From IMG/VR virus record IMGVR_UViG_2529293076_000030: a stretch of 20,824 bases of DNA. The stretch is one strand, 5' to 3'. The position numbers were made by a program, and so were the translations under genes. This document shows positions 1 through 17,411 of the stretch, one piece after another (the stretch's first letter is position 1; each line of letters opens with the position of its first letter). The notes beneath the pieces are model-generated. The model made no database searches and was not told where the DNA came from. It saw nothing but the letters and a program-made list of their open reading frames with translations. This DNA comes from a virus. Its lineage: Duplodnaviria; Heunggongvirae; Uroviricota; Caudoviricetes.

Positions 1-1143
1 CTATGCTGTTTTGATATCTACGATAATCCAGTCTTTACCACGATCATCATTGTATCGGTCGGTCATTTTTCTGGATTTATGACCTAACAACTTTTGCGTA
101 TCCAGACCCTGTTCCCGATATAACCGTTCTGACAGAGATCGCTGCTCATGAAATGTGGGCGCAGTTCCTTGCTCCCATTTTATGCCACATTTTTCCCTGG
201 CCTTTTTAAAAGCCGTTGTAAGAGTATTTGCAGACACCTGGTCTCCTCTGTTTGCTTGAGAGGTAGTGTGACGGTAATGGACCAGATATTTACTAACAAC
301 AGCATCCCTGCACTGAGATATAACTTCACGAAGGGTAATATTCAGAGCATCGCATTTCAGGTTAAGCGGAATAGCAAGTTTTGAACCGGTTTTTTCCTGA
401 GTAATGTGCAACATGTCGTCCCAGATATCAGAGAATTTCAAATTGCAGATATCGCTTAAACGTTGTCCAGTGACAAGAGCAAGTAGCATCCCGCATTTTA
501 AATAGGGCTGCCGTCTGCTTACGCTGTCAAATATTGCCTGCCATTCGGGCAGTGATAATCTTTGACGGTTTACTCGATTTCGCGGTTGTTTTGTTGCCTG
601 CGCTGGGTTAAATCCTGGCGGAACATGTCCTGCGTGTTGTGCTTCTTTGAAGACGTCGATCAACACCATTCTCACGACTTGCGCCATCCTGTTATGACCT
701 TCAGCCTTTACAGCATCAATTATTTCGGCAATATCAAGTGCGGTAATATCCTTGAGGTGTTGCATTCCACAATGCTCACGGAAAAGACGGATGGGTTTGC
801 CTTTTTGCCGATAGGAGTTGGGTCTTAGTTCATTATGTTGCAGCCTGTCCTCCTGGATAGAATTATATTTATCAAGCCATTCTGTCACCGTAATGTCTGA
901 GCGCCTGCCTTTCATTCTTTCCAGACGCTCATTGACGCTTAATATTTGTCGGGTACGTTGTTCAGCAATAATGGTATTTGCTTCAGTAGCAACTTGTTTT
1001 GCTTCATTCTCATCAGTTCCTAAGCTATGAAAACGACCGGATAGTGGATGTTTGTATTGCCAATATACCTTTCCGGTTCGCTTATCTAATTTGCAATATA
1101 AATTGGGTATAGAGATTTTGTGAGATCGGGGGCTAGCAGCCAT
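1..1143 (-). CDS. int: Lambda-family tyrosine integrase (380 aa); stop codon at window positions 1-3
   Basis: Complete minus-strand ORF. N-terminus (SPRSHK...PNLYCKLDKRTGKVYWQY) and C-terminus (PTFHEQRSLSERLY...LLGHKSRKMTDRYNDDRG) align by eye with lambda Int arm-binding and catalytic regions, including the box-II HxxR and catalytic Tyr context. Recognition from memory. Confidence 0.85.
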   Translation of the reverse strand: MAASPRSHKISIPNLYCKLDKRTGKVYWQYKHPLSGRFHSLGTDENEAKQVATEANTIIAEQRTRQILSVNERLERMKGRRSDITVTEWLDKYNSIQEDRLQHNELRPNSYRQKGKPIRLFREHCGMQHLKDITALDIAEIIDAVKAEGHNRMAQVVRMVLIDVFKEAQHAGHVPPGFNPAQATKQPRNRVNRQRLSLPEWQAIFDSVSRRQPYLKCGMLLALVTGQRLSDICNLKFSDIWDDMLHITQEKTGSKLAIPLNLKCDALNITLREVISQCRDAVVSKYLVHYRHTTSQANRGDQVSANTLTTAFKKAREKCGIKWEQGTAPTFHEQRSLSERLYREQGLDTQKLLGHKSRKMTDRYNDDRGKDWIIVDIKTA

Positions 1144-1369
1144 CAGCGATTATCCGTTGGAGTTTTGGGTTTGCGTTTATTGGGAGTTGCGGTTCTGCAA
1201 GCGTTCCTACAAAACGGGAATTTCGGTCAATCATCCAGTAGCGACCAACTTTTATAGCGGGTGGGGCCATCATTTTCCCTTGCGCGTATTTTTTCAGAAC
1301 TCGCTCACTTGGTGCTAAGTCCCCAAATTCTTCTTTAGCCCAGTCCCGTAAAGTGATTAGTCGAGACAT
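1133..1369 (-). CDS. xis: Excisionase-like small DNA-binding protein (78 aa)
   Basis: Small basic ORF immediately upstream of int, overlapping its start by 11 nt. Strong SD (GAGGAGG on minus strand, + coords 1371-1379) before the ATG. Position and size typical of lambdoid Xis. Confidence 0.6.
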   Translation of the reverse strand: MSRLITLRDWAKEEFGDLAPSERVLKKYAQGKMMAPPAIKVGRYWMIDRNSRFVGTLAEPQLPINANPKLQRIIADGC

Positions 1370-1472
1370 TTGTCCTCCTCTTAGCTGCTGAGGGAGTTTG
1401 TGACCGATATATCTGACATGATATTAAGCTCATGGCAGGTACATCTCTTGACTGGTCATAGAGATAAATTTA

Positions 1473-2297
1473 ATGCTGAGAAATGCAGTATTGAATTTAT
1501 CAATTTTTCACCAGCTTCTGGTCTTTCTGGCTGTCATGCGCAAAACATATGGCTTTAATAAAAAACTGGATTGGGTTAGCAACGAGCAACTTTCCGAATT
1601 AACCGGGATATTGCCGCACAAGTGTTCTGCTGCAAAAAGTGTTCTGGTAAAGCGTGGGATTTTTATTCAGAGCGGGCGGAATACCGGCATTAATAATGTG
1701 GTCAGTGAATGGTCAACATTACCCGAATCAGGTAAGAAAAATAAAGTTTACCTGAAAGAGGTAAATTTACCTGAATCAGGTAAAAAAAGTTTACCCAAAT
1801 CAGGTAAAGGCGTTTACCCGAATCAGGTAAACACAAAAGACAAACTAACAAAAGACAATATAAAACCTTTTTCGTCCGAGAATTCTGGCGAATCCTCTGA
1901 CCAACCAGAAAACGATCTTCCTGTGGTGAAACCGGATGCTGCAATTCAGAGCGGCAGCAAGTGGGGGACAGCAGAAGACCTGACCGCCGCAGAGTGGATG
2001 TTTGACATGGTGAAGACCATCGCGCCATCAGCCAGAAAACCGAATTTTGCAGGGTGGGCTAACGATATCCGCCTGATGCGTGAACGTGACGGACGTAACC
2101 ACCGCGACATGTGCGTGCTGTTCCGCTGGGCATGCCAGGACAACTTCTGGTCCGGTAACGTGCTAAGTCCGGCCAAACTCCGCGACAAGTGGACCCAGCT
2201 CGAAATCAACCGTAACAAGCAACAGGCAGGCATGATAGCCAGCAAACCAAAACTCGACCTGACAAACACTGACTGGATTTACGGGGTGGATTTATGA
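1473..2297 (+). CDS. O: Replication initiator O (274 aa); C-terminal two thirds near-identical to lambda O, N-terminal DNA-binding part divergent and about 36 aa shorter
   Basis: Residues from ~FSSENSGESSDQPENDL to the C-terminus (..TNTDWIYGVDL) match lambda O as I recall it. Central part encodes repeated LPESGKK peptides from the iterons. No SD before the ATG at 1473; the frame opens after a TGA at 1449-1451. Confidence 0.85.
   Translation: MLRNAVLNLSIFHQLLVFLAVMRKTYGFNKKLDWVSNEQLSELTGILPHKCSAAKSVLVKRGIFIQSGRNTGINNVVSEWSTLPESGKKNKVYLKEVNLPESGKKSLPKSGKGVYPNQVNTKDKLTKDNIKPFSSENSGESSDQPENDLPVVKPDAAIQSGSKWGTAEDLTAAEWMFDMVKTIAPSARKPNFAGWANDIRLMRERDGRNHRDMCVLFRWACQDNFWSGNVLSPAKLRDKWTQLEINRNKQQAGMIASKPKLDLTNTDWIYGVDL
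1719..1830. repeat. Replication origin iterons: five 17-bp near-palindromic repeats (TTACCYGAATCAGGTAA-like) inside the O gene, followed by an A-rich stretch (1831-1867)
   Basis: Repeats seen directly at 1719-1735, 1750-1766, 1767-1783, 1791-1807 and 1814-1830. Arrangement (iterons then AT-rich region within the O linker) matches the organisation of ori-lambda, but with five copies and a different repeat sequence. Confidence 0.75.
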
Positions 2298-2995
2298 AAA
2301 ACATCGCCGCACAGATGGTTAACTTTGACCGTGAGCAGATGCGTCGGATCGCCAACAACATGCCGGAACAGTACGACGAAAAGCCGCAGGTACAGCAGGT
2401 AGCGCAGATCATCAACGGTGTGTTCAGCCAGTTACTGGCAACTTTCCCGGCGAGTCTGGCTAACCGTGACCAGAACGAACTGAACGAAATCCGCCGCCAG
2501 TGGGTTCTGGCTTTCCGGGAAAACGGGATCACCACAATGGAACAGGTTAACGCAGGAATGCGCGTAGCCCGTCGGCAGAATCGACCATTTCTGCCATCAC
2601 CCGGGCAGTTTGTTGCATGGTGCCGGGAAGAAGCATCCGTTATCGCCGGACTGCCAAACGTCAGCGAGCTGGTTGATATGGTTTACGAGTATTGCCGGAA
2701 GCGTGGCCTGTATCCGGATGCAGAGTCTTATCCGTGGAAATCGAACGCGCATTACTGGTTGGTTACCAACTTGTACCAGAACATGCGGGCCAATGCGCTG
2801 ACTGACGCGGAATTACGGCGCAAGGCTGCCGATGAACTGACCTGTATGACAGCGCGAATTAACCGTGGTGAGACGATACCTGAACCAGTAAAACAACTTC
2901 CTGTTATGGGCGGTAGACCTCTAAATCGTGCACAGGCTCTGGCGAAGATCGCAGAAATTAAAGCTAAGTTCGGACTGAAAGGAGCAAGTGTATGA
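2294..2995 (+). CDS. P: Replication protein P (DnaB helicase loader), 233 aa
   Basis: Near-identical over full length to lambda P as recalled (MKNIAAQMVNFDREQMRRIANNMPEQYDEKPQ...AKFGLKGASV). ATGA overlap with O stop. Confidence 0.92.
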   Translation: MKNIAAQMVNFDREQMRRIANNMPEQYDEKPQVQQVAQIINGVFSQLLATFPASLANRDQNELNEIRRQWVLAFRENGITTMEQVNAGMRVARRQNRPFLPSPGQFVAWCREEASVIAGLPNVSELVDMVYEYCRKRGLYPDAESYPWKSNAHYWLVTNLYQNMRANALTDAELRRKAADELTCMTARINRGETIPEPVKQLPVMGGRPLNRAQALAKIAEIKAKFGLKGASV

Positions 2996-3294
2996 CGGGC
3001 AAAGAGGCAATTATTCATTACCTGGGGACGCATAAGAGCTTCTGTGCACAGGACGTTGCCGCGGTAACAGGTGCAACCGTAACCAGCATAAATCAGGCTG
3101 CGGCTAAAATGGCGCGGGCAGGAATCCTGGTCGTTGATGGTAAGGTCTGGCGAACGGTGTATTACCGGTTCGCTACCAGAGAAGAACGGGAAGGAAAGGT
3201 GAGCACGAATCTGATTTTTAAGGAGTGTCGCCAGAGTGCCGCGATGAAACGGGTATTGAGGGTATATAAAAGAACATCAATGGGTACACAATGA
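2992..3294 (+). CDS. ren: Ren protein (100 aa), C-terminal end differs from lambda Ren
   Basis: MTGKEAIIHYLGTHKSFCAQDVAAVTGATVTSINQAAAKMARAGILV... matches lambda Ren; the last ~10 residues diverge, consistent with a recombination junction at the 3' end. ATGA overlap with P. Confidence 0.8.
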   Translation: MTGKEAIIHYLGTHKSFCAQDVAAVTGATVTSINQAAAKMARAGILVVDGKVWRTVYYRFATREEREGKVSTNLIFKECRQSAAMKRVLRVYKRTSMGTQ

Positions 3295-3311
3295 TGAAAC
3301 AGGTGAGTTGA

Positions 3312-3346
3312 GTTCAAACTGTAGTACAATTCTCTCCAGTTTGAAC
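3312..3346 (+). promoter_or_regulatory. Perfect 10-bp inverted repeat (GTTCAAACTG / CAGTTTGAAC) with 15-nt loop, 15 nt upstream of emrE start; function unknown
   Basis: Seen directly. No U-tract follows, so not a canonical intrinsic terminator. An SD-like AGGAAAG (3347-3353) follows before the emrE ATG at 3362. Confidence 0.3.
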
Positions 3347-3361
3347 AGGAAAGAATATGTT

Positions 3362-3694
3362 ATGAACCCTTATATTTATCTTGGTGGTGCAATACTTGCA
3401 GAGGTCATTGGTACAACCTTAATGAAGTTTTCAGAAGGTTTTACACGGTTATGGCCATCTGTTGGTACAATTATTTGTTATTGTGCATCATTCTGGTTAT
3501 TAGCTCAGACGCTGGCTTATATTCCTACAGGGATTGCTTATGCTATCTGGTCAGGAGTCGGTATTGTCCTGATTAGCTTACTATCATGGGGGTTTTTCGG
3601 CCAACGGCTGGACCTGCCAGCCGTTATAGGCATGATGTTGATTTGTGCCGGTGTGTTGGTTATTAATTTATTGTCACGAAGCACACCACATTAA
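3362..3694 (+). CDS. emrE: Small multidrug resistance (SMR) efflux transporter EmrE, 110 aa
   Basis: MNPYIYLGGAILAEVIGTTLMKFSEGFTRLWPSVGTIICY... matches E. coli EmrE essentially full length, including the conserved membrane-embedded Glu (E14) context. The ORF-track start at 3308 is an upstream extension. Confidence 0.92.
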   Translation: MNPYIYLGGAILAEVIGTTLMKFSEGFTRLWPSVGTIICYCASFWLLAQTLAYIPTGIAYAIWSGVGIVLISLLSWGFFGQRLDLPAVIGMMLICAGVLVINLLSRSTPH

Positions 3695-3724
3695 AAATAA
3701 TTTCTTTTAAAAGACTGCAATATG

Positions 3725-3757
3725 GCGGTTCATATCTTTACATGGGCCGCTTTTGTT
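3725..3757 (+). terminator. Candidate intrinsic terminator downstream of emrE
   Basis: Imperfect 9-bp stem (3725-3733 / 3742-3750, two G-U pairs), 8-nt loop, then TTTTGTT. Confidence 0.4.
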
Positions 3758-3938
3758 AATGTTTTTAGTTTTTGTGTATTCTTTTGTGCCTTCAAGATTA
3801 TTGCGTAAGCAAATTGCAATACGATTATTGTTGTATATTCAAGATAGTGTGATCGTAATTGTCTTTTTAAATAAAAATTAAACAAAAATTATATCTCACC
3901 ACTAAGGTTTATAAAAGCATAAGTTAGCAGGTGTCACC

Positions 3939-5465
3939 ATGAAAAAAGCCATAGCATATATGCGATTTTCATCACCAGGTCAGATGTCTGGCGACTCATT
4001 AAACCGACAGAGAAGACTTATTGCTGAATGGTTAAAGGTAAATAGTGATTATTATCTTGATACCATAACATATGAAGATTTAGGATTAAGTGCATTCAAA
4101 GGAAAGCATGCACAATCAGGAGCTTTTTCGGAATTTTTAGATGCTATAGAGCATGGTTATATATTGCCAGGAACTACATTGTTAGTTGAAAGTCTGGACA
4201 GACTTTCAAGAGAAAAAGTCGGTGAAGCGATTGAACGTCTGAAATTGATTTTGAATCACGGTATTGATGTTATAACTCTTTGCGACAATACAGTCTATAA
4301 TATTGACTCTTTGAATGAGCCATATTCATTAATAAAAGCCATACTTATAGCACAAAGGGCAAATGAAGAAAGCGAGATAAAGTCAAGTCGGGTTAAATTA
4401 TCATGGAAGAAAAAACGGCAGGATGCACTGGAATCAGGTACGATTATGACGGCGTCTTGTCCGAGATGGCTCTCCTTAGATGACAAAAGAACGGCTTTTG
4501 TTCCAGACCCCGACAGGGTGAAAACTATTGAGCTAATTTTTAAACTCAGGATGGAAAGGCGCTCATTGAATGCAATAGCCAAGTATTTAAATGATCATGC
4601 TGTAAAGAATTTCTCAGGAAAAGAAAGTGCATGGGGGCCTTCTGTAATTGAAAAATTATTAGCGAATAAAGCTCTGATAGGTATATGCGTACCTTCATAT
4701 CGTGCAAGAGGGAAAGGGATAAGTGAAATCGCTGGCTATTATCCCAGAGTCATATCAGATGATTTGTTTTACGCTGTACAGGAAATTCGGTTGGCACCTT
4801 TTGGTATTAGCAATAGTAGCAAGAATCCTATGCTAATAAATCTACTTCGAACAGTTATGAAGTGTGAGGCTTGTGGTAATACCATGATTGTTCATGCGGT
4901 ATCTGGAAGTTTGCATGGCTATTATGTTTGTCCGATGAGAAGATTACATCGATGTGACAGGCCATCAATAAAGAGAGATTTGGTTGATTATAATATCATT
5001 AATGAATTGCTTTTTAATTGTAGCAAAATTCAACCAGTTGAAAACAAGAAAGATGCTAATGAAACTTTAGAGTTAAAAATTATTGAGCTTCAGATGAAAA
5101 TTAATAATTTAATCGTTGCATTGTCTGTCGCGCCTGAAGTTACCGCTATAGCAGAGAAAATAAGACTATTAGATAAGGAATTACGAAGAGCTTTGGTATC
5201 ATTGAAAACTTTGAAGAGTAAAGGTGTAAATTCATTCAGTGATTTTTATGCTATTGACTTAACCAGTAAAAATGGACGAGAGTTATGCCGTACACTTGCC
5301 TATAAAATATTCGAAAAAATCATAATTAATACGGATAATAAAACCTGTGATATCTATTTTATGAATGGCATTGTTTTTAAACACTATCCTTTAATGAAAG
5401 TAATATCCGCCCAGCAGGCGATAAGTGCTCTCAAATATATGGTTGATGGTGAGGTTTATTTTTGA
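3939..5465 (+). CDS. ybcK: Large serine recombinase (508 aa), DLP12 YbcK-like
   Basis: N-terminal resolvase-type catalytic motif (AYMRFSSPGQ, with the putative nucleophilic Ser) followed by a long recombinase domain and a Cys cluster (CEACGN...C...C) typical of large serine recombinases. Matches K-12 YbcK in length and position after emrE. AT-rich codon usage. Confidence 0.8.
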   Translation: MKKAIAYMRFSSPGQMSGDSLNRQRRLIAEWLKVNSDYYLDTITYEDLGLSAFKGKHAQSGAFSEFLDAIEHGYILPGTTLLVESLDRLSREKVGEAIERLKLILNHGIDVITLCDNTVYNIDSLNEPYSLIKAILIAQRANEESEIKSSRVKLSWKKKRQDALESGTIMTASCPRWLSLDDKRTAFVPDPDRVKTIELIFKLRMERRSLNAIAKYLNDHAVKNFSGKESAWGPSVIEKLLANKALIGICVPSYRARGKGISEIAGYYPRVISDDLFYAVQEIRLAPFGISNSSKNPMLINLLRTVMKCEACGNTMIVHAVSGSLHGYYVCPMRRLHRCDRPSIKRDLVDYNIINELLFNCSKIQPVENKKDANETLELKIIELQMKINNLIVALSVAPEVTAIAEKIRLLDKELRRALVSLKTLKSKGVNSFSDFYAIDLTSKNGRELCRTLAYKIFEKIIINTDNKTCDIYFMNGIVFKHYPLMKVISAQQAISALKYMVDGEVYF

Positions 5466-5584
5466 GTAATAATCACTTTTTCAACCGTGCTATGGTATGA
5501 AAGTAAAGTAACTACTATGATATTAACTATCGAGCAAGAATATCCCCAGGCACTCAACAGGGCGCAGGTCAACGTGAATCGGTC

Positions 5585-5776
5585 ATGACACGACACCGAT
5601 TTTGCGGAATCAATGTTGCTTATGAATACAACATCCCGCTTAGTACATGTTCAACACATCAGCAAATTTTGAACTGGGTGTGGCACTTAACTGAAAAAAC
5701 ATGGATGACACAAAATGTTACTCGTCGCTTCATTGAAGTAGCTTGTGGATATCACAAGCTAGACTATCGCCAATGA
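5585..5776 (+). CDS. Hypothetical 63-aa ORF; possibly a gene remnant rather than a real gene
   Basis: ORF only. No convincing SD. C-terminal ...RRFIEVACGYHKLDYRQ is faintly reminiscent of AraC-family C-termini; in K-12 the AraC-type gene ybcM lies at this position. Speculative. Confidence 0.2.
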   Translation: MTRHRFCGINVAYEYNIPLSTCSTHQQILNWVWHLTEKTWMTQNVTRRFIEVACGYHKLDYRQ

Positions 5777-5871
5777 TATTCAATTTTTGATTTTTTAGTA
5801 TCAACCTTCCATAATAATGTCACCGGAGCTTGAACAACTCCGGTGACTTCTGCGCATTTAAGGGGACTTAA

Positions 5872-5970
5872 ATGCGACCACAATCTGAACTCCTTACCTT
5901 GTCACAGATGCAGAAATGCACCTGCGATGTCTTGCATCCAGCGTTTGATCTCTGCGGAGGTGAAGCGTGA
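5872..5970 (+). CDS. ylcH: Small protein YlcH-like (32 aa)
   Basis: ATG 5872; translation [32 protein letters not shown]. Stop TGA overlaps the GTG start of the next gene (GTGA). Position immediately upstream of ybcN as in DLP12. Identity from memory is uncertain. Confidence 0.4.
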
Positions 5971-6422
5971 ACCTCCCACAAGATGGCATCAAATTACATC
6001 GCGGTAACTTCACCGCTGTCGGTCAGCAGATCCAGACTTATCTGGAAGACGGCAAATGCTTTCGCATGGTGCTTAAACCGTGGCGCGAGAGACGCAGTCT
6101 TTCCCAGAATGCACTCAGCCACATGTGGTACAGCGAAATCAGTGAATACCTCATCAGCAGGGGGAAATCGTTCGCTACTTCAGCATGGGTAAAAGATGCT
6201 CTCAAACACACATACCTCGGTTATGAAACCAAGGACCTGGTTGATGTCGTAACCGGCGAAATCACTACTATCCAGTCGTTACGCCATACCTCCGATCTTG
6301 GTACCGGAGAGATGTATGTCTTCCTGTGTAAGGTTGAAGCCTGGGCGATGAATATTGGCTGCCACCTGACTATTCCACAGAGCTGCGAGTTCCAGCTGCT
6401 GCGTGACAAGCAGGAGGCGTAA
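5967..6422 (+). CDS. ybcN: NinB-family protein YbcN (151 aa), GTG start
   Basis: [19 protein letters not shown]...[12 protein letters not shown] matches K-12 YbcN. SD GGAGG at 5956-5960. Confidence 0.85.
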
Positions 6423-6592
6423 TGGCTACACCGCTTATTCGTGTCATGAACGGACACATCTACAAAGTACCAAATCGTCGTAAGCGTAAACCTGAGCTGA
6501 AGCCATCCGAAATACCAACACTGCTCGGATATACCGCCAGCCTGGTTGATAAAAAATGGTTGCGACTGGCAGCAAGGAGGAATCATGGCTGA
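6422..6592 (+). CDS. ninE: NinE (56 aa)
   Basis: [56 protein letters not shown]. Not in the ORF track (<60 aa). ATG overlaps the ybcN stop (TAATG). Confidence 0.8.
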   Translation: MATPLIRVMNGHIYKVPNRRKRKPELKPSEIPTLLGYTASLVDKKWLRLAARRNHG

Positions 6593-6875
6593 TTTGAGAA
6601 AAGCAGCGCGTAGTCGGGAATGCCAAGTAAGAATCCCTGGCGTATGTAATGGCAACCCTGAAACGTCTGTACTGGCACATATCCGGCTGACTGGATTGTG
6701 CGGCACCGGTACCAAACCGCCAGACTTGATTGCCACCATTGCATGTTCTGCCTGCCACGACGAAATCGACCGCCGCACACATTTTGTCGATGCTGCATAT
6801 GCAAAAGAATGCGCGCTGGAAGGTATGGCGAGAACACAGGTTATCTGGCTGAAAGAGGGGGTTATTAAGGCGTGA
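6585..6875 (+). CDS. ybcO: YbcO (DUF1364 putative nuclease), 96 aa
   Basis: True start is ATG at 6585 ([23 protein letters not shown]...), overlapping the ninE 3' end by 8 nt. The ORF-track start at 6546 is an upstream extension. Cys/His-rich motif. Confidence 0.8.
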
Positions 6876-7234
6876 ATACCTACAGCATCACATTACCCTG
6901 GCCTCCGAGCAATAATCGCTACTACCGGCATAATCGCGGGCGCACGCACATCAGCGCAGAAGGGCAGGCATACCGTGATAACGTCGCCCGAATCATCAAA
7001 GGCTCCATGCTGGATATCGGCCTGGCTATGCCAGTGAAAATCCGTATTGAGTGCCACATGCCGGATCGCCGTCGCCGTGACCTGGATAATCTGCAAAAAG
7101 CCGCTTTTGACGCACTCACCAAAGCAGGTTTCTGGCTGGATGATGCTCAGGTCGTTGATTACCGTGTTGTGAAGATGCCCGTTACCAAAGGTGGGAAGCT
7201 GGAGCTGACCATCACCGAACTGGGGAATGAATGA
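6872..7234 (+). CDS. rusA: RusA Holliday-junction resolvase (120 aa), GTG start
   Basis: [25 protein letters not shown]...[30 protein letters not shown] matches E. coli RusA. GTGA overlap with ybcO. Confidence 0.9.
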
Positions 7235-7371
7235 TGTTTGAGTCTTATATGGCAGAACGTCTTCGCCACCGCTGGATGCGCCTGCGCTTATATCGTTTTC
7301 CTGGTTCTGTTTTGACCGATTACCGGATACTGAAGAATTACGCCAAAACACTGAAAGGAGCTGCCGCATGA
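7231..7371 (+). CDS. ylcG: YlcG-like small protein (46 aa)
   Basis: [46 protein letters not shown]. Overlaps rusA stop and Q start. Confidence 0.6.
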
Positions 7372-8057
7372 ATACCCAATATTTACAGTATGTCCGCGAG
7401 CAACTCATTGTGGCTACCGCTGATTTGAGCGGAGCAACGAAAGGACAGCTTGAAGCCTGGCTGGAGCATGCACAATTTGATACTGGTACATACAAACGAA
7501 AGAAGCCGCGCATTCTGGATGAGGTAACTGGCAGGATGATTACGCTGGATAATCCGCCGATTTCCGGTAAGCAGTCGTACGCAAAAGGTTCATCCATTGC
7601 ACTGGTCAGCCAGGTTGAGTTCTCAACCTCGTCATGGCGCCGCGCGGTTCTGTCTCTCGAAGAACATCAGAAAGCGTGGTTGCTGTGGAGTTACAGCGAA
7701 AGTGTTCGCTGGGAACATCAGGTCACCATAACGCAGTGGGCATGGAGCGAGTTTAAGACTCTGTTGGGTACCAGGAAAATTGCAGGTAAGACACTGGAAC
7801 GTTTGAAGAAGTTGATCTGGCTGGCGGCACAGGATGTGAAGAACGAGCTGGCAGGGCGTAAGACCTATGAATACCAGGAGCTGGCATCACTGGTGGGAGT
7901 GACATCAAAAAACTGGTCTGAGACATTTACTGAACGCTGGGTTGCAATGAAACACATTTTTCTACAGCTTGATAGCCAAGCTTTATTGCTTTTAACGAAA
8001 ACACGTTCAAAACAAAAGACCACATTTTCACAGCAAGATATTGCAAAACTGGATTAA
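7368..8057 (+). CDS. Putative late-gene antiterminator (Q-like), 229 aa; not lambda Q
   Basis: Assignment is mainly positional: after rusA/ylcG, before a strong promoter, two intrinsic terminators and the lysis cassette. Sequence lacks the Cys cluster of lambda Q and I do not recognise its family with certainty. Confidence 0.5.
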   Translation: MNTQYLQYVREQLIVATADLSGATKGQLEAWLEHAQFDTGTYKRKKPRILDEVTGRMITLDNPPISGKQSYAKGSSIALVSQVEFSTSSWRRAVLSLEEHQKAWLLWSYSESVRWEHQVTITQWAWSEFKTLLGTRKIAGKTLERLKKLIWLAAQDVKNELAGRKTYEYQELASLVGVTSKNWSETFTERWVAMKHIFLQLDSQALLLLTKTRSKQKTTFSQQDIAKLD

Positions 8058-8069
8058 AAATCATATATT
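8041..8069 (+). promoter_or_regulatory. Candidate sigma70 late promoter (pR'-like): -35 TTGCAA (8041-8046), 17-bp spacer, -10 TATATT (8064-8069)
   Basis: Hexamers and spacing read directly. Overlaps the last codons of the Q-like gene, as pR' does relative to Q in lambdoid phages. Confidence 0.4.
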
Positions 8070-8125
8070 TTATGTAAATCTGATATTTTGCCAATGTTGT
8101 ACGCACTGGCAGTAATCCAAATTCA

Positions 8126-8159
8126 AGCCCGAGGTTTAAAGCCTTGGGCTTTTCTGTTT
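8126..8159 (+). terminator. Intrinsic terminator hairpin plus T-tract
   Basis: Stem AGCCCGAGG / CCTTGGGCT, loop ~5 nt, followed by TTTTCTGTTT. Confidence 0.55.
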
Positions 8160-8238
8160 CTGAACGGTGAGTAGCCTTCCAACCTACCCCAGCCAGGGGG
8201 TCTTCAGCTGTTGAGTTGATATTGCTTAGCCCTCTGTT

Positions 8239-8264
8239 GCCAGCTACATGCTGGCTTTTTTATT
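8239..8264 (+). terminator. Intrinsic terminator (tR'-like)
   Basis: Perfect 6-bp GC-rich stem GCCAGC / GCTGGC, 5-nt loop, then TTTTTTATT. About 188 nt downstream of the candidate promoter start, similar to the ~194-nt lambda 6S RNA. Confidence 0.6.
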
Positions 8265-8378
8265 CCAGGCTTGTGGGGAGCATCAACTCCGTGCTTTGTC
8301 GTTAAATTACCCCGTGAGCCTGATTTCTGACATTTAACGTCCCGGCCTTTTGTCGGCGGCGAAACATTGGCTATTCAT

Positions 8379-8684
8379 ATGCACGAAAAAGAGAGCCTTG
8401 CCGGAGCGTTCTGGCTCGTTTTGCTGATCATCGCAGGTTGGGGCGGTCTGGTCCGCTACCTGATAGATGTGAAGCAGAGTAAAGCAACGTGGAGTTGGAT
8501 AAATGCTCTGGCTCAAATAGTGGTATCAGGATTCACCGGTGTTATTGGTGGCCTGATCAGCATCGAAAGTGGATTCAGTATTTACATGATTCTCGCGACA
8601 GCGGGGATTAGTGGTGCGATGGGTTCGGTTGCACTGACGTACTTCTGGGAACGACTGACAGGGGTGAAAAATGCAAAATCTTAA
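8379..8684 (+). CDS. Putative holin (101 aa from ATG 8379), three predicted transmembrane segments; not lambda S
   Basis: Three hydrophobic stretches (AGAFWLVLLIIAGWGGLV; INALAQIVVSGFTGVIGGLI; IYMILATAGISGAMGSVAL) and a short charged C-terminus. Overlaps the endolysin start by 14 nt, as S/R do in lambda. The ORF-track start at 8367 is a TTG. Confidence 0.6.
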   Translation: MHEKESLAGAFWLVLLIIAGWGGLVRYLIDVKQSKATWSWINALAQIVVSGFTGVIGGLISIESGFSIYMILATAGISGAMGSVALTYFWERLTGVKNAKS

Positions 8685-9147
8685 TCCTCAGCGTAAAGCC
8701 TTCCTCGATATGTTGGCGTGGTCAGAAGGAACGGATAACGGGCGACAACCGACACGTAACCACGGTTATGATGTTATTGTTGGCGGCGAACTGTTTACTG
8801 ATTACTCCGATCACCCTCGCAAACTTGTCACGCTACACCCCAAACTCAAATCAACAGCCGCCGGACGTTATCAGCTTCTTTCACGCTGGTGGGATGCTTA
8901 CCGTAAACAGCTTGGTTTGAAAGACTTCTCCCCCAAAAGCCAGGACGCAGTGGCATTGCAGCAGATTAAAGAGCGTGGTGCTTTACCTATGATTGATCGC
9001 GGTGATATCCGTCAGGCAATCGACCGTTGCAGTAATATCTGGGCTTCACTGCCGGGCGCTGGTTATGGTCAGTTCGAGCATAAGGCTGACAGCCTGATTG
9101 CAAAATTCAAAGAAGCTGGCGGAACGGTCAGAGAGAGTGAGGTATGA
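8671..9147 (+). CDS. R: Endolysin R, lambda-type lytic transglycosylase (158 aa)
   Basis: [47 protein letters not shown]... near-identical to lambda R as recalled. Confidence 0.92.
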
Positions 9148-9605
9148 GCAGAATAACCGCGATTATCTCCGCTCTGCTCATCTGCATCATCGTCTGCCTG
9201 TCATGGGCTGTTAATCATTACCGTGATAACGCCATTACCTACAAAGCCCAGCGCGACAAAAATGCCAGAGAACTGAAGCTGGCGAACGTGGCAATTACTG
9301 ACATGCAGATGCGTCAGCGTGATGTTGCTGCGCTCGATGCAAAATACACGAAGGAGTTAGCTGATGCGAAAGCTGAAAATGATGCTCTGCATGATGATGT
9401 TGCCGCTGGTCGTCGTCGGTTGCACATCAAAGCAGTCTGTCAGTCAGTGCGTGAAGCCACCACCGCCTCCGGCGTGGATAATGCAGCCTCCCCCCGACTG
9501 GCAGACACCGCTGAACGGGATTATTTCACCCTCAGAGAGAGGCTGATCACTATGCAAAAACAACTGGAAGGAACCCAGAAGTATATTAATGAGCAGTGCA
9601 GATAG
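9144..9605 (+). CDS. Rz: Rz inner-membrane spanin (153 aa)
   Basis: [60 protein letters not shown]... near-identical to lambda Rz. Confidence 0.9.
9364..9546 (+). CDS. Rz1: Rz1 outer-membrane lipoprotein spanin (60 aa), nested in the +1 frame of Rz
   Basis: [60 protein letters not shown]: lipobox LVVVGC and proline-rich stretch as in lambda Rz1. Confidence 0.85.
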
Positions 9606-9636
9606 AGCTGCCCATATCGATGGGCAGCTCATGCAA

Positions 9637-9930
9637 TTATTGTGAGCAATACACACGCGCTTCCAGCGGAGTATAAATGCCTAAAGTAATAAAACCGAGC
9701 AATCCATTTACGAATGTTTGCTGGGTTTCTGTTTTAACAACATTTTCTGCGCCGCCACAAATTTTAGCTGCATCGACAGTTTTCTTCTGCCCAATTCCAG
9801 AGACGAAGAAATGGTGGGTGATGGTTTCCTTTGGTGTTACTGCTGCCGGTTTGTTTTGAACAGTAAACGTCTGTTGGGCACATCCTGTAATAAGCAGGGC
9901 CAGCGCAGTAGCGAGTAGCATTTTTTTCAT
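9637..9930 (-). CDS. bor: Bor lipoprotein (serum-resistance moron), 97 aa
   Basis: MKKMLLATALALLITGCAQQTFTVQNKPAAVTPKETITHHFFVSGIGQKK... essentially identical to lambda Bor. Lipobox LITGC. Confidence 0.92.
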   Translation of the reverse strand: MKKMLLATALALLITGCAQQTFTVQNKPAAVTPKETITHHFFVSGIGQKKTVDAAKICGGAENVVKTETQQTFVNGLLGFITLGIYTPLEARVYCSQ

Positions 9931-10211
9931 GGTGTTATTCCCGATGCTTTTTAAAGTTCGCAGAATCGTATGTGTAGAAAATTAAACAAACCCTAAACAA
10001 TGAGTTGAAATCTCATATTGTTAATATTTATTAATGTATGTCAGATGCGAAGGATCGTCACTGTATTCCCGGATTAACTATGTCCGCAGCCCTGACAGGG
10101 AAACTCCTCTGCGGGAGTGTCCGGGAATAATTAATAACGATGCACACAGGGTTTAGCGCGTACACGTATTGAACCGCCCCGGTTTTCCTGGAGAGTGTTT
10201 TATCTGTGAAC

Positions 10212-11099
10212 TCAGGCTGCCAGATCATCGTTTCTGATGGAAGCATAATAAGCTTTTTCTGCTTCTGCCGGAGGGATATGACCCAGCCTTCCCAGCAATC
10301 GTCGATTGTTATACCAGTCCACCCACGTGAGTGTGGCCAGTTCCACTTCTGCACGGTTTTTCCAGCTCTTACGGTGTATTACCTCCGCTTTGTAAAGACC
10401 ATTGATGCTCTCCGCCATCGCGTTGTCATACGAGTCACCTGTACTCCCTGTTGATGCCAGCAGTTTTGCTTCTTTTAGTCGCTCCGTATAGGCCAGTGAT
10501 ATATACTGAGAACCTTTATCACTGTGATGGACTGTGCCGGACGGCCGACGGGCCCACAACGCCTGCTCCAGTGCATCCAGCACGAATGTCGTTTCCATAG
10601 ACGATGAGACTCGCCACCCCACGATACATCCGGCAAACACATCAATGATGAACGCCACATAGACGAAGCCCTGCCATGTGCTGACGTAAGTAAAATCAGC
10701 CACCCACAGCTGGTCAGGACGTTCTGCCACGAACTGACGGTTTACGCGGTCGCCTGCGGAAACGGCTTTCCGGCTGACGGTAGTACGGACCTTTTTACCC
10801 CGGAGAACACCGGCAAGTCCCATAACCGCCATGAGGCGCGCCACTGTACATCTGGCCACCCTGATACCTTCGCGTAACAACTGGCGCCAGACTTTACGCA
10901 CACCGTACACCTGATGATTTTCATCGTATACGCGCTGTATCTCTCTCTTCAGCCAGTCATCGCGCTGAGCACGGGCACTGCGTTTATCAGGATGATGTCG
11001 CTGTTGCTGACAGTGGTAATACGTTGACGGGGCAATATGCAGTTCACTGCATACCGGTCCGACCCCGTACTGCTCACGCAGCTTATCCAGCAGCGGCAT
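10212..11099 (-). CDS. IS629-type transposase OrfB (DDE integrase-like catalytic domain), 295 aa from first ATG; normally expressed as an OrfAB fusion by -1 frameshift
   Basis: Contains DDE-type motifs (WVADFTY..., HSDKGSQY..., YDNAMAESINGLYKAE) characteristic of IS3-family transposases. In the -1 frame relative to orfA. Confidence 0.85.
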   Translation of the reverse strand: MPLLDKLREQYGVGPVCSELHIAPSTYYHCQQQRHHPDKRSARAQRDDWLKREIQRVYDENHQVYGVRKVWRQLLREGIRVARCTVARLMAVMGLAGVLRGKKVRTTVSRKAVSAGDRVNRQFVAERPDQLWVADFTYVSTWQGFVYVAFIIDVFAGCIVGWRVSSSMETTFVLDALEQALWARRPSGTVHHSDKGSQYISLAYTERLKEAKLLASTGSTGDSYDNAMAESINGLYKAEVIHRKSWKNRAEVELATLTWVDWYNNRRLLGRLGHIPPAEAEKAYYASIRNDDLAA

Positions 11100-11425
11100 T
11101 ATTTTTTCCAGAGGCGGTCGAACTCCGCCTTCGCAAAATAAGCGGAAGCCTGGCGAAGGATATCGTTACTGCGGCGCAGTTCACGATTTTCACGTTCCAG
11201 CTCTTTCAGACGCTGACGTTCAGCGGTGGTGAGTCCACCATCACCACTCCCGGTATCCCGCTCATGCTGACGAACCCACACACGCAGAGTCTCTGGTGTA
11301 CAGCCAATCTTTGGGGCAATGGAACAAATTGCCGCCCATTGTGAGTCATATTCGCCCTGACTTTCCAGAACCATACGAACTGCTCGTTGACGGACCTCGG
11401 GGGAAAAACGTGTATTTTTAGTCAT
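11099..11425 (-). CDS. IS629-type transposase OrfA (108 aa, HTH/leucine-zipper part)
   Basis: [57 protein letters not shown]... typical IS3-family OrfA. Ends ...WKK* at an A6 run that overlaps the orfB start. Confidence 0.85.
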
Positions 11426-11534
11426 CCTGTTTACCTCTTTCTCAGGGAGTTTAGTCTCCAGGATTCCCGGGGCGGTTCATATTGCATTATGCCAACGCCC
11501 CGGTGCTGACACGGAAGAAACCGGACGTGATGAT

Positions 11535-11945
11535 TTAGCGTGGAAAGATTTGTGTAGTGTTCTGAATGCTCTCAGTAAATAGTAATGAATTATCAAAGGC
11601 ATAGTAATATCTTTTATGTTCGTGGATATTTGTAACCCATCGGAAAACTCCTGCTTTAGCAAGATTTTCCCTGTATTGCTGAAATGTGATTTCTCTTGAT
11701 TTCAACCTATCATAGGACGTTTCTATAAGATGCGTATTTCTTGAGAATTTAACATTCACAACCTTTTTAAGTCCTTTTATTAACACAGTGTTATCGTTTT
11801 CTAACACAATGTGAATATTATCTGTGGCTAGATAGTAAATATAATGTGAGACATTGTGACGTTTTAGTTCAGAATAAAACAATTCACAGTTTAAATCTTT
11901 TCGCACTTGATCGAATATTTCTTTAAAAATGGCAACCTGAGCCAT
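11535..11945 (-). CDS. ybcV: YbcV-like protein (homologue of lambda ORF p78, DUF1398-type), 136 aa from the SD-preceded ATG; the ORF extends to 12068 if the upstream ATG is used
   Basis: [43 protein letters not shown]... Position between bor and cos as in lambda. SD GGAAGG precedes the ATG at 11945; none precedes the ATG at 12068. AT-rich. Confidence 0.6.
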
Positions 11946-12230
11946 TGGTAAAACCTTCCATGTGATACGAGGGCGCGTAGTTTGCATTATCGTTTTTATC
12001 GTTTCAATCTGGTCTGACCTCTTTGTGTTTTGTTGATGATTTATGTCAAATATTAGGAATGTTTTCAATTAATAGTATTGGTTGCGTAACAAAGTGCGGT
12101 CCTGCTGGCATTCTGGAGGGAAATACAACCGACAGATGTATGTAAGGCCAACGTGCTCAAATCTTCATACAGAAAGATTTGAAGTAATATTTTAACCGCT
12201 AGATGAAGAGCAAGCGCATGGAGCGACAAA

Positions 12231-12437
12231 ATGAATAAAGAACAATCTGCTGATGATCCCTCCGTGGATCTGATTCGTGTAAAAAATATGCTTAATAGCA
12301 CCATTTCTATGAGTTACCCTGATGTTGTAATTGCATGTATAGAACATAAGGTGTCTCTGGAAGCATTCAGGGCAATTGAGGCAGCGTTGGTGAAGCACGA
12401 TAATAATATGAAGGATTATTCCCTGGTGGTTGACTGA
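12231..12437 (+). CDS. ybcW: YbcW-like small protein (68 aa; homologue of lambda ORF p79)
   Basis: [70 protein letters not shown]-like GGAGCG upstream. Confidence 0.6.
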
Positions 12438-12601
12438 TCACCATAACTGCTAATCATTCAAACTACTTAACCTGTGACAGAGCCAACACGCAGTCTGTCA
12501 CTGTCAGGAAAGTGGTAAAACTGCAACTCAATTACTGCAATGCCCTCGTAATTAAGTGAATTTACAATATCGTCCTGTTCGGAGGGAAGAACGCGGGATG
12601 T

Positions 12602-12796
12602 TCATTCTTCATCACTTTTAATTGATGTATATGCTCTCTTTTCTGACGTTAGCCTCCGACGGCAGGCTTCAATGACCCAGGCTGAGAAATTTCCGGACCC
12701 TTTTTGATCAAGAGCGATGTTAATTTGTTCAATCATTTGGTTAGGAAAGCGGATGTTGCGGGTTGTTGTTCTGCGGGTTCTGTTCTTCGTTGACAT
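12602..12796 (-). CDS. ylcI: YlcI-like small protein (DUF3950-type), 64 aa
   Basis: MSTKNRTRRTTTRNIRFPNQMIEQINIALDQKGSGNFSAWVIEACRRRLTSEKRAYTSIKSDEE. Basic N-terminus; position just upstream of cos as in DLP12. Weak SD. Confidence 0.5.
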   Translation of the reverse strand: MSTKNRTRRTTTRNIRFPNQMIEQINIALDQKGSGNFSAWVIEACRRRLTSEKRAYTSIKSDEE

Positions 12797-12939
12797 GAGG
12801 TTGCCCCGTATTCAGTGTCGCTGATTTGTATTGTCTGAAGTTGTTTTTACGTTAAGTTGATGCGGATCAATTAATACGATACCTGCGTCATAATTGATTA
12901 TTTGACGTGGTTTGATGGCGTAGATGCACGTTGTGACAT

Positions 12940-13184
12940 GTAGATGATAATTATTATCATTTTGCGGGTCCTTTCCGGCGATCCGACAGGTTACGGGGCG
13001 GCGACCTCGCGGTTTTTCACTATTTATGAAAATTTTCCGGTTTAAGGCGTTTCCGTTCTTCTTCGCCGTAACCTAATGTTTTTATTTAAAACACCCCCTG
13101 AAAAGAAAGGAAACGACAGGTGCTGAAAACGGGCTTTTTGGCCTCTGTCGTTTCCTTTCTCTGTTTTTGTCCGTGGAATGAACA
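12940..13184 (+). other. cos: Lambda-type cos site: cosQ/cosN/cosB, with the 12-nt cohesive-end sequence GGGCGGCGACCT at 12996-13007
   Basis: ...CCGACAGGTTACG GGGCGGCGACCT CGCGG... read directly, matching the lambda right end/left end junction from memory. Downstream region up to Nu1 matches the lambda cosB region. Confidence 0.85.
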
Positions 13185-13704
13185 ATGGAAGTCAACAAAA
13201 AGCAGCTGGCTGACATTTTCGGCGCGAGTATCCGTACCATTCAGAACTGGCAGGAGCAGGGAATGCCCGTTCTGCGGGGTGGTGGCAAGGGTAATGAGGT
13301 ACTTTATGACTCTGCCGCCGCCATAAAATGGTATGCCGAAAGGGATGCTGAAATTGAGAACGAAAAGCTGCGCCGGGAAGTTGAAGAACTGAGGCAGGAC
13401 AGCGAGACAGATCTCCAGCCAGGGACTATTGAGTACGAACGCCATCGACTTACGCGTGCGCAGGCCGACGCACAGGAACTGAAGAATGCCAGAGACTCAG
13501 CTGAAGTGGTGGAAACCGCATTCTGTACTTTCGTGCTGTCGCGGATCGCAGGTGAAATTGCCAGTATTCTCGACGGGATCCCCCTGTCGGTGCAGCGGCG
13601 TTTTCCGGAACTGGAAAACCGACATGTTGATTTCCTGAAACGGGATATCATCAAAGCCATGAACAAAGCAGCCGCGCTGGATGAACTGATACCGGGGTTG
13701 CTGA

Positions 13705-13730
<26 letters not shown>
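13185..13730 (+). CDS. nu1: Terminase small subunit Nu1 (181 aa)
   Basis: MEVNKKQLADIFGASIRTIQNWQEQGMPVLRGGGKGNEVLYDSAAAIKWYAERDAEIENEKLRREVEEL... near-identical to lambda gpNu1. Confidence 0.95.

Positions 13731-17411
<3,681 letters not shown>

What the first reader, a model, noticed from the sequence alone, without database searches (positions are those of the whole stretch)
7368..8684. Mosaic late-control/lysis module: non-lambda Q-like gene and non-lambda holin joined to lambda-type R, Rz/Rz1 and bor
From R onward (8671 through the head genes) the sequence is lambda-like at the protein level. The 229-aa Q-position protein and the 3-TM holin are not lambda Q or S. A recombination joint therefore lies in or near the holin/R overlap. 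The Q-like protein lacks the zinc-binding Cys cluster of lambda Q, so its antiterminator role is only positional inference.
Basis: partly seen in the sequence, partly recalled or inferred. Interest (0 to 1): 0.4.

Follow-up and report, generated by a model that had tools for sequence, protein, structure and literature searches.

The report
Ordinary lambdoid late-control and lysis mosaic
This is a normal, already-annotated patchwork in an E. coli O157:H7 lambda-like prophage: a phage-82-type Q antiterminator with its own late promoter and a P1-LydA-type holin sit directly in front of near-lambda R, Rz/Rz1 and bor genes.

Summary

- **Q gene.** The 229-aa ORF (7368-8057) is a full-length member of Pfam PF06323 (E 1e-94). 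The literature equates PF06323 with the Q82 family, one of three known Q antiterminator families. The protein has no Cys and no similarity to lambda Q.
- **Late promoter.** A conserved late-promoter/qut block (8041-8086) overlaps the 3' end of Q. In 107 of 109 viral contigs it lies downstream of a Q82-family gene. Two intrinsic terminators follow it.
- **Holin.** The holin (8367/8379-8684) is a LydA-type (PF16083) protein with three hydrophobic segments. It is unrelated to lambda S by BLASTP.
- **Joint with lambda.** Lambda nucleotide similarity (about 95%) starts at 8676-8688. That is inside the holin/R overlap, at the base that follows the lambda S stop.
- **Lambda-like genes.** R, Rz, Rz1 and Bor are 94-99% identical to lambda at the protein level.

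The whole window is 100% identical to E. coli O157:H7 chromosomes (a defective prophage next to icd). 830 complete E. coli genomes carry the module, and RefSeq already names the genes. This is textbook lambdoid mosaicism and is already known.

One side note: the short promoter-to-terminator leader (8073-8152) is a sub-threshold relative of the Salmonella Gifsy-1 sRNA IsrJ.

The parts
7231..7371 (+). ylcG-like 46-aa ORF. It is a conserved linker shared with DLP12, phage 434 and Gifsy-1. Its stop overlaps the Q start (ATGA).
   Evidence: PHROG 2705, E 9e-23. RefSeq names it 'YlcG family protein'. DLP12 similarity ends at 7372 and phage 434 similarity begins at 7217.
7368..8057 (+). Q82-family late-gene antiterminator (229 aa, no Cys).
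   Evidence: PF06323, E 1.4e-94. PHROG 304 'anti-termination protein Q-like', E 1.5e-108. PF06323 is the Q82 family. 87% aa identity to phage 434 Q. The exact sequence occurs on at least 1000 contigs and is named antitermination protein Q.
8041..8086 (+). Conserved late promoter/qut block. It holds the -35 TTGCAA (8041-8046), a 17-nt spacer, the -10 TATATT (8064-8069), an inferred start near 8073-8076, and an extended -10-like TGnTATTTT (8081-8089) as the putative sigma-dependent pause element.
   Evidence: Promoter scan, 9 of 12 matches. The block is conserved in phage 434, PPompW and Gifsy-1 while the flanks diverge. 107 of 109 IMG/VR loci with the motif have a Q82-family gene upstream on the same strand; in 16 of these the block is separated from Q by 31-1500 bp. 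Assignment of the pause element is inference.
8073..8163 (+). Short leader RNA (about 80-90 nt) ending at the first intrinsic terminator. It is related to IsrJ below threshold and is the analogue of lambda 6S RNA and StxS.
   Evidence: Rfam isrJ RF01393: 30.4 bits against a gathering score of 37, E 6e-4 to 1e-3, full model length. Fold z-score is -3.5. The true isrJ in Gifsy-1 lies directly downstream of the same promoter block.
8125..8163 (+). First intrinsic terminator (tR'-like): a 12-bp stem followed by TTTTCTGTTTCT.
   Evidence: Terminator scan. Phage 434, PPompW and Gifsy-1 all have a hairpin plus T-run at the equivalent place. Phage 434 curators annotate a terminator there.
8239..8265 (+). 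Second intrinsic terminator: GCCAGC-loop-GCTGGC followed by TTTTTTATTC.
   Evidence: Terminator scan and RNA fold.
8367..8684 (+). LydA-type holin with three hydrophobic segments. The ORF opens at TTG 8367 (105 aa); RefSeq starts it at ATG 8379 (101 aa).
   Evidence: PF16083, E 8e-22, 77.6 bits against a cut-off of 28.4. PHROG 785 holin, E 5.5e-40. Hydropathy. 74% aa identity to gp13 of Salmonella phages ST64T, L and PS3, and 85-88% to Klebsiella prophage holins. No similarity to lambda S.
8671..8688 (+). Mosaic joint between the holin allele and lambda-type DNA. It covers the first 6 codons of R, which overlap the holin 3' end.
   Evidence: blastn similarity to lambda starts at 8676 and megablast at 8688 = lambda 45510. 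Alignment. The R N-terminus reads MQNLNP here and MVEINN in lambda.
8671..9147 (+). Lambda R-type endolysin (158 aa).
   Evidence: 94% aa identity to lambda R. PHROG 90 endolysin, E 1.6e-63.
9144..9605 (+). Rz i-spanin, with the embedded Rz1 o-spanin at 9364-9546.
   Evidence: 97% aa identity to lambda Rz and to lambda Rz1. PF03245, E 5e-53.
9637..9930 (-). bor lipoprotein gene.
   Evidence: 99% aa identity to lambda Bor. PF06291.

Best explanation
The region is the late-control and lysis cassette of a lambda-like prophage of E. coli O157:H7, assembled from interchangeable modules as is usual for lambdoid phages.

Module 1 (about 7217/7365 to 8090-8111) is a Q82-family antiterminator gene together with its own late promoter and Q-utilisation site. 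By analogy with phage 82 Q, RNA polymerase starts at the constitutive promoter near 8073-8076. It then pauses through sigma-70 rebinding an extended -10-like element at 8081-8089. In the absence of Q it terminates at 8125-8163, with a back-up terminator at 8239-8265, releasing a leader RNA of about 80-90 nt. When Q is made it binds the promoter-proximal DNA, loads onto the paused polymerase and lets it read through both terminators into the lysis genes.

Module 2 (about 8334-8684) is a LydA-type holin with three predicted transmembrane segments. It should permeabilise the inner membrane at a programmed time.

Module 3 (from 8676-8688) is lambda-type. R degrades the murein, the Rz/Rz1 spanin disrupts the outer membrane, and bor is a lysogenic-conversion gene on the opposite strand.

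Shown here: the family memberships, the module boundaries, conservation of the cis block, and its co-occurrence with Q82-family genes. Inferred: Q binding, the pause position, antitermination and holin function.
For: - Pfam, PHROG and literature assignment of Q to the Q82 family, supported by the curated phage 434 and Gifsy-1 annotations.
- A conserved promoter/initial-transcript block that stays with Q82-family genes even where other DNA has been inserted between them.
- Terminators downstream of the block in all four phages compared.
- In Gifsy-1 the homologous block drives IsrJ, reported as a ~74-nt RNA highly transcribed in lysogens. This fits a constitutive late promoter plus terminator.
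- Holin family match and hydropathy.
- R, Rz, Rz1 and Bor are 94-99% identical to lambda.
- Breakpoints map against lambda, DLP12, phage 434 and IMG/VR contigs at gene borders: 7217/7365, 8086-8111, 8334, 8676-8688 and 9144.
- The same module is present in 830 complete E. coli genomes and, at 97% nucleotide identity, in the record Escherichia phage PhiR47_2.
Against: - No direct comparison with the phage 82 Q sequence itself was possible. Membership rests on the Pfam model, two papers that equate it with Q82, and other curators' notes.
- No solved structure exists for this family, and my AlphaFold model was unusable (pLDDT 41). The way Q82-type proteins act on RNA polymerase is not established, and PMC9388147 states this is open.
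- In this host the prophage has lost everything between xis and mid-O, including N, cI, cro and cII. Q therefore has no normal early promoter and the cassette may never fire on its own.
- The transcription start, pause site and Q-binding site are inferred from sequence only.
Confidence: 0.9

Rival explanations
1. The cassette is a silent remnant. The genes are intact, but because the prophage has lost its immunity and early region the cassette is never expressed autonomously. It matters only as recombination stock, or if it is trans-activated by a Q82-type protein from another resident prophage. This concerns activity in this host, not identity, so it can be true alongside the best explanation.
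For: int-xis is followed directly by a 5'-truncated O pseudogene, with no N, cI, cro or cII. An IS3-family element has inserted downstream of bor. O157:H7 carries a second Q82-family paralogue, in prophage CP-933K, in the cluster that is 87% identical to this Q.
Against: All ORFs from Q to Rz1 are intact. The region is 100% conserved across many O157:H7 genomes. A near-identical module (97% nucleotide identity) is present in the record Escherichia phage PhiR47_2, whose listed host is E. coli C.
Confidence: 0.35
2. The 229-aa protein is not a late-gene antiterminator. It would be some other DNA-binding or regulatory protein that merely occupies the Q position.
For: There is no sequence or Zn-finger similarity to lambda Q, no PDB relative and no NCBIfam model hit. 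Only a sub-threshold helix-turn-helix hint was found (HTH_Crp_2, E 0.046).
Against: The protein matches the Q82-family profile over its full length at 316 bits. The cognate promoter-terminator arrangement is conserved. The Gifsy-1 homologue AntQ was reported to interfere with transcription termination when expressed.
Confidence: 0.03
3. The holin/R junction is not a discrete exchange with a lambda-like phage. It would instead be an old, stable pairing, so 'joint' only describes divergence from lambda S.
For: In IMG/VR loci, all 17 with a lambda-R-type gene downstream of the motif also have this holin. The block 8334-9300 travels as one unit at 96-97% identity.
Against: Similarity to lambda switches abruptly from none to about 85-95% within some 15 nt, exactly at the lambda S stop and R start. 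7 of 24 loci pair this holin with something other than a lambda-type R. The holin also occurs next to a gene annotated as a glycoside hydrolase family 19 protein and next to P22-like gene 19. An exchange at this border therefore happened at some time, though not necessarily recently.
Confidence: 0.15

Closest known systems
Phage 82 Q / Q82 family (Pfam PF06323), including phage 434 Q and Gifsy-1 AntQ
   Same: Full-length profile match. Same position after rusA-ylcG. Same conserved promoter block overlapping the gene's 3' end, followed by an intrinsic terminator. 87% aa identity to phage 434 Q and about 70% to Gifsy-1 AntQ.
   Different: An allele at 75-87% identity to the named phage proteins. 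It sits in a defective prophage without an early region. What follows the qut block (the terminators and the holin type) differs from phage 434, PPompW and Gifsy-1.
Lambda late region (Q - pR' - 6S RNA/tR' - S - R - Rz/Rz1 - bor)
   Same: Same gene order and logic. R, Rz, Rz1 and bor are 94-99% identical in protein and about 95% in DNA. The holin/endolysin overlap is kept (14 nt here, 17 nt in lambda).
   Different: Q belongs to a different, unrelated family with no Zn-finger cysteines. The holin belongs to a different Pfam family. The leader is about 80-90 nt with two terminators, rather than lambda's longer 6S RNA (about 194 nt from my own knowledge, not checked here). There is no orf-64.
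DLP12 cryptic prophage of E. coli K-12
   Same: The nin-region backbone (renD, emrE, ybcK, ybcN, ninE, ybcO, rusA, ylcG) and the rzpD-borD-ybcV-nohD side are 93-99% identical.
   Different: DLP12 carries quuD, nmpC, essD and rrrD where this window has the Q82-type Q, the LydA-type holin and lambda R (7373-9144).
P1 LydA holin family (PF16083); gp13 of Salmonella phages ST64T, L and PS3
   Same: Pfam match above threshold, about 100 aa, three hydrophobic segments, located immediately upstream of and overlapping the endolysin gene.
   Different: 74% identity to the Salmonella gp13 alleles. Here it is paired with a lambda-type R. No lydB-like antiholin gene was seen, and a dual-start motif is not evident.
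IsrJ sRNA of Salmonella Gifsy-1 (Rfam RF01393); lambda 6S RNA and StxS as functional analogues
   Same: The 5' 14 nt are identical. There is a small first hairpin and a terminator hairpin, and the RNA is transcribed from the same conserved promoter block.
   Different: It scores 30.4 bits, below the family's gathering score of 37, and the middle part is unrelated. No expression or Hfq-binding data exist for this locus.

Membership tests
Q82 family of Q antiterminators (PF06323) | Sequence match to the family profile above the curated cut-off, over the full length | tested here: met
   316.3 bits against a cut-off of 25, profile positions 1-217 of 220. PF06323 is equated with the Q82 family in PMC9388147 and PMC7171158.
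Q82 family of Q antiterminators (PF06323) | Gene lies at the end of the nin region, just upstream of the late promoter and lysis genes | tested here: met
   Gene order is ybcN-ninE-ybcO-rusA-ylcG-Q-promoter/terminators-holin-R.
Q82 family of Q antiterminators (PF06323) | Cognate late promoter with a promoter-proximal sigma-dependent pause element, followed by an intrinsic terminator | tested here: inconclusive
   Promoter-like hexamers, a conserved 46-bp block, an extended -10-like TGnTATnnT and terminators are present and co-occur with Q82-family genes. Pausing itself cannot be shown from sequence.
Q82 family of Q antiterminators (PF06323) | Q-dependent read-through of terminators by RNA polymerase | not testable with these tools
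   This needs in vitro transcription or a reporter assay. Only indirect support exists, from Gifsy-1 AntQ.
Q82 family of Q antiterminators (PF06323) | Direct similarity to the phage 82 Q protein itself | not tested
   The phage 82 sequence was not retrievable here. The only evidence is indirect: the Gifsy-1 record cites REGQ_BP82 and the phage 434 record says 'Q82-like'.
Q-lambda family (PF03589) | Profile match and a Zn-binding cysteine cluster | tested here: not met
   No Pfam hit other than PF06323, even at E up to 10. BLASTP against lambda Q gives E 3.9. The protein has 0 Cys against 7 in lambda Q.
Q21 family (PF06530) | Profile match or similarity to a solved Q21 structure | tested here: not met
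   No PF06530 hit. No PDB sequence hit at E up to 1. That the PDB holds Q21 structures is taken from the literature.
LydA-type holin (PF16083, holin superfamily III) | Profile match above the cut-off | tested here: met
   77.6 bits against a cut-off of 28.4. PHROG 785 holin, E 5.5e-40.
LydA-type holin (PF16083, holin superfamily III) | Small membrane protein with multiple transmembrane segments and a charged C-terminus, adjacent to the endolysin gene | tested here: met
   Three hydrophobic stretches at about residues 11-35, 44-68 and 69-93. The C-terminus is [11 protein letters not shown]. The gene overlaps R by 14 nt.
LydA-type holin (PF16083, holin superfamily III) | Timed membrane hole formation that releases the endolysin | not testable with these tools
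   This requires a lysis assay.
Lambda S holin family | Sequence similarity to lambda S, with its MKM dual-start motif | tested here: not met
   BLASTP gives E 8.6. The only significant Pfam hit is PF16083. The N-terminus is M-A-I-H-M-H-E-K, with no Lys or Arg between the two possible starts.
Lambda R / Rz / Rz1 / Bor | High identity to the lambda proteins in the lambda order | tested here: met
   94%, 97%, 97% and 99% aa identity, about 95% nucleotide identity, same order and strands.
IsrJ sRNA (Rfam RF01393) | Covariance-model score at or above the gathering threshold | tested here: not met
   30.4 bits against 37. Gifsy-1 scores 100.3 bits.

The most novel reading that the evidence does not exclude
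The short leader made from the Q82-type late promoter (8073 to about 8160) may be produced constitutively from this defective O157:H7 prophage and act as an Hfq-binding trans-acting sRNA, as reported for StxS and for its Salmonella relative IsrJ. More generally, IsrJ would then be the prematurely terminated late-operon leader of Gifsy-1, that is, a by-product of the Q82-type qut site. I did not find that link stated in the papers I could read.
Probability: 0.15. Interest if true: 0.35.

Novelty: already known. Interest (0 to 1): 0.1.

Why it matters
It matters little beyond correct annotation. The result illustrates the textbook modular exchange of lambdoid phages at gene borders. It also shows that the gene in the Q position is a genuine Q82-family antiterminator, not an unknown. 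Two things may be of minor use to specialists:
- The Q82 family is the only Q family with no solved structure and an unsettled mechanism. Its cis element, conserved over 46 bp across many contigs, defines a clean template for such work.
- The late-promoter leader here is related to the Salmonella sRNA IsrJ, which hints at where that sRNA comes from.

Tried and rejected
- **PDB sequence search** with the Q protein found nothing at E up to 1.
- **AlphaFold2** on a 24-sequence alignment (75-96% identity) gave pLDDT 41 and pTM 0.21. That is too poor for any fold search, so none was run.
- **NCBIfam** has no model hit for Q, the holin or R. Pfam also gives no hit for R, so its identity rests on 94% identity to lambda R and on PHROG 90.
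- **Full-text search** for the promoter sequence, to find the published phage 82 pR' sequence, returned nothing. The inferred start and pause positions therefore could not be checked against phage 82.
- **paQ-like cII box.** A box TTGC-N6-TTGC lies at 8033-8046 on the minus strand, at the same place where phage 434 curators annotate paQ. However, the pattern occurs in the window no more often than chance: 4 found against 4.9 expected. I did not count it as a part.
- **Minus-strand promoter-like site** at 8094-8067 (10 of 12 matches) was not pursued.
- **Dual-start holin/antiholin motif** was considered (TTG 8367 and ATG 8379). I rejected it as unsupported: there is no basic residue in the 4-aa extension, and RefSeq uses the ATG.
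- **tRNA scan and Rfam** at gathering thresholds found nothing in 7368-8684.
Full report
**Where the window comes from.** Window 1-10171 is 100% identical to the chromosome of E. coli O157:H7 strain PA20, and 11480-20824 is 99.9% identical. The region is a prophage inserted next to icd. The stretch 7231-9200 is 100% identical in many O157:H7 genomes. 830 of 5426 complete E. coli genomes carry at least 80% of it. RefSeq already names the genes 'YlcG family protein', 'bacteriophage antitermination protein Q', 'phage holin family protein', 'glycoside hydrolase family protein', 'RzpD' and 'Bor'. The exact 229-aa sequence occurs on at least 1000 contigs in the protein collection. The record Escherichia phage PhiR47_2 carries the whole Q-to-bor module at 97% nucleotide identity.

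**Checking the observation.**
- a 229-aa ORF at 7368-8057;
- a 105-aa ORF at 8367-8684 (TTG start), which is 101 aa from the ATG at 8379 that RefSeq uses;
- R at 8671-9147, overlapping the holin by 14 nt;
- Rz at 9144-9605 with embedded Rz1 at 9364-9546;
- bor at 9637-9930 on the minus strand.

R, Rz, Rz1 and Bor are 94%, 97%, 97% and 99% identical to the lambda proteins. BLASTP finds nothing between the 229-aa protein and lambda Q, or between the holin and lambda S. The 229-aa protein has no cysteine, while lambda Q has seven. Hydropathy gives three hydrophobic stretches in the holin.

**Placing the joints.** blastn of the window against lambda gives four blocks:

| Window | Lambda | Content | Identity |
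|---|---|---|---|
| 1831-3267 | 39119-40555 | 3' part of O, P, ren | 94.5% |
| 8676-10171 | 45500-46991 | R to beyond bor | 94.9% |
| 11480-12995 | 46987-48502 | to the right end of the lambda map | 98.2% |
| 12996-20824 | 1-7830 | nu1 to FII | 97.8% |

- The non-lambda segment is therefore 3268-8675, larger than the finding's coordinates.
- Megablast starts lambda similarity at window 8688 = lambda 45510, the base after the lambda S stop at 45509. In the alignment, identity jumps from noise to 85-95% within about 15 nt. This matches the different first six residues of R, MQNLNP here and MVEINN in lambda.
- Against DLP12 of K-12, the window matches at 2684-7372 and again from 9145. Relative to DLP12 the replaced segment is thus 7373-9144, where DLP12 has quuD, nmpC, essD and rrrD.
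- Against phage 434, only 7217-8090 matches, at 88%.
- Among 120 IMG/VR contigs, the recurrent alignment ends are 7217 or 7365, 8086-8111, 8334 and 9144.

All joints lie at gene or signal borders. That is the standard pattern of lambdoid mosaicism.

**What the Q-position protein is.**
- It matches Pfam PF06323 at E 1.4e-94 (316 bits, cut-off 25) over 217 of 220 profile positions, and PHROG 304 'anti-termination protein Q-like' at E 1.5e-108.
- Two papers state that Q proteins fall into three unrelated families and give PF06323 as the Q82 family, PF03589 as Q-lambda and PF06530 as Q21.
- It is 87% identical to phage 434 Q, whose curators call it 'Q82-like'.
- It is about 70% identical to Gifsy-1 Q, whose record cites REGQ_BP82. 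That protein was studied as AntQ and reported to interfere with termination when expressed.
- More distant relatives include the Q proteins annotated in N15, PY54, phiKO2 and VP882.
- No PDB chain matches. PMC9388147 notes that the mechanism of the Q82 family is still open.
- My AlphaFold model from a shallow alignment was unusable, with pLDDT 41.

**The cis elements.** The last codons of Q contain TTGCAA (8041-8046). Seventeen bases later comes TATATT (8064-8069).
- The block 8041-8086 is conserved in phage 434, PPompW and Gifsy-1, while the sequence beyond about 8090-8110 is unrelated.
- In Gifsy-1 the block lies about 840 bp downstream of Q, beyond an inserted isrK-anrP module, and is still 91% identical over 47 bp.
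- A degenerate pattern of the block found 120 IMG/VR loci. Of the 109 with at least 800 bp upstream, 107 have a Q82-family gene upstream on the same strand, and in 16 of these it is separated from the block by 31-1500 bp. The adjacency cases are partly trivial, because the pattern overlaps the Q stop. The separated cases are the informative ones.
- Within the block, TGATATTTT (8081-8089; TGGTATGTT in 434, TGATATCGT in Gifsy-1) looks like an extended -10. I take it, by inference, to be the sigma-dependent pause element.
- All four phages then have a hairpin plus T-run. Here it is at 8125-8151 plus TTTTCTGTTTCT, with a second terminator at 8239-8255 plus TTTTTTATTC.

This is the architecture expected for a late promoter, qut site and tR'.

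**The leader RNA.** Rfam's isrJ model matches 8073-8152 over its full length at 30.4 bits, below the gathering score of 37, with E about 1e-3. The authentic isrJ of Gifsy-1 scores 100 bits and starts immediately after the conserved promoter block. IsrJ is reported as a ~74-nt RNA highly transcribed in lysogens under all conditions tested. A PNAS paper on StxS describes short, prematurely terminated late-promoter RNAs as a general source of sRNAs, naming phages lambda, 21, phi80, 82 and P22. Taken together, IsrJ appears to be the late-operon leader of Gifsy-1, and the window encodes a diverged counterpart. This is a side observation, not part of the finding.

**The holin.**
- It matches PF16083 (LydA holin, holin superfamily III) at 77.6 bits against a cut-off of 28.4, and PHROG 785 'holin' at E 5.5e-40.
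- Relatives are gp13 of Salmonella phages ST64T, L, PS3 and ST160 (74% identity) and many Klebsiella prophage holins (85-88%).
- Among IMG/VR loci with enough downstream sequence, 24 of 95 have this holin. 17 of those 24 pair it with a lambda-type R, and 7 do not.
- I found no support for a lambda-like dual start.

**How it most likely works, and the caveat.** The module should behave like any lambdoid late switch. The late promoter is constitutive and transcription terminates early unless Q is present. Q loads at the promoter-proximal pause and carries RNA polymerase through the terminators. The holin, the R transglycosylase and the Rz/Rz1 spanin then lyse the cell. In this particular prophage, int-xis is followed directly by a 5'-truncated O gene, so N, cI, cro and cII are missing. 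Q then has no normal route to expression. The cassette may be silent, or may be reachable only in trans through another Q82-type prophage. O157:H7 has a paralogue in CP-933K, in the cluster 87% identical to this Q.

**Verdict.** The finding is real and correctly interpreted, but it is ordinary and already annotated. It is a Q82-family Q with its cognate qut site and a LydA-type holin joined, at the holin/R border, to lambda-type R-Rz/Rz1-bor.

Noticed in passing
window 8073-8152 (+); L006 (Gifsy-1) 4514-4621: The Salmonella sRNA IsrJ (Rfam RF01393) lies immediately downstream of the same conserved Q82-type late promoter block. The window's leader is a sub-threshold relative (30.4 bits against 37). 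IsrJ therefore looks like the prematurely terminated late-operon leader of Gifsy-1, an analogue of lambda 6S RNA and StxS. I did not see this link stated in the papers I read.
   Followed up: partly
window 10170-11479 (-): A 1310-bp IS3-family insertion sequence. It has 22/25 inverted repeats (TGAACCGCCCCGG...), a 3-bp TAT target duplication, orfA at 11099-11425, orfB at 10212-11099 and an ALIL frameshift pseudoknot at 11028-11144. It is inserted between bor and the lambdap78/ybcV-homologous region and is absent from strain PA20, so it is polymorphic. From memory it resembles IS629/IS1203; I did not verify this.
   Followed up: partly
window 1-3300: The prophage is defective. int (1-1143, minus strand) and xis (1133-1369, minus strand) are followed directly by a 5'-truncated O pseudogene (1509-2297), then P and ren. 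The whole recombination, N, immunity and cII region is missing.
   Followed up: partly
window 3362-5465: emrE (an SMR multidrug efflux gene) and a ybcK-type serine recombinase sit between ren and the nin genes, as in DLP12 of K-12 (97% nucleotide identity). ybcL and ybcM of DLP12 are absent here.
   Followed up: no
window 8033-8046 (-): TTGCAATATCTTGC fits the cII-box consensus TTGC-N6-TTGC. It lies at the same place inside the 3' end of Q where phage 434 curators annotate paQ, and it overlaps the -35 of the late promoter on the other strand. The pattern is no more frequent in the window than chance (4 found against 4.9 expected), and this prophage has no cII.
   Followed up: partly
window 12995/12996: Lambda coordinates 48502 and 1 abut here, so the lambda map ends are joined at the prophage-internal position. 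nu1, A, W, B, C, D, E and FI follow at about 98% nucleotide identity to lambda.
   Followed up: no
L006 (Gifsy-1) 3698-3896: Between Gifsy-1 Q and its displaced late promoter lies a P1-like c4 antisense RNA/target module. Rfam c4-a1b1, isrK and C4 hits precede the anti-repressor gene. IsrK therefore appears to be part of a c4/ant-type immunity module inserted between Q and its qut site.
   Followed up: no
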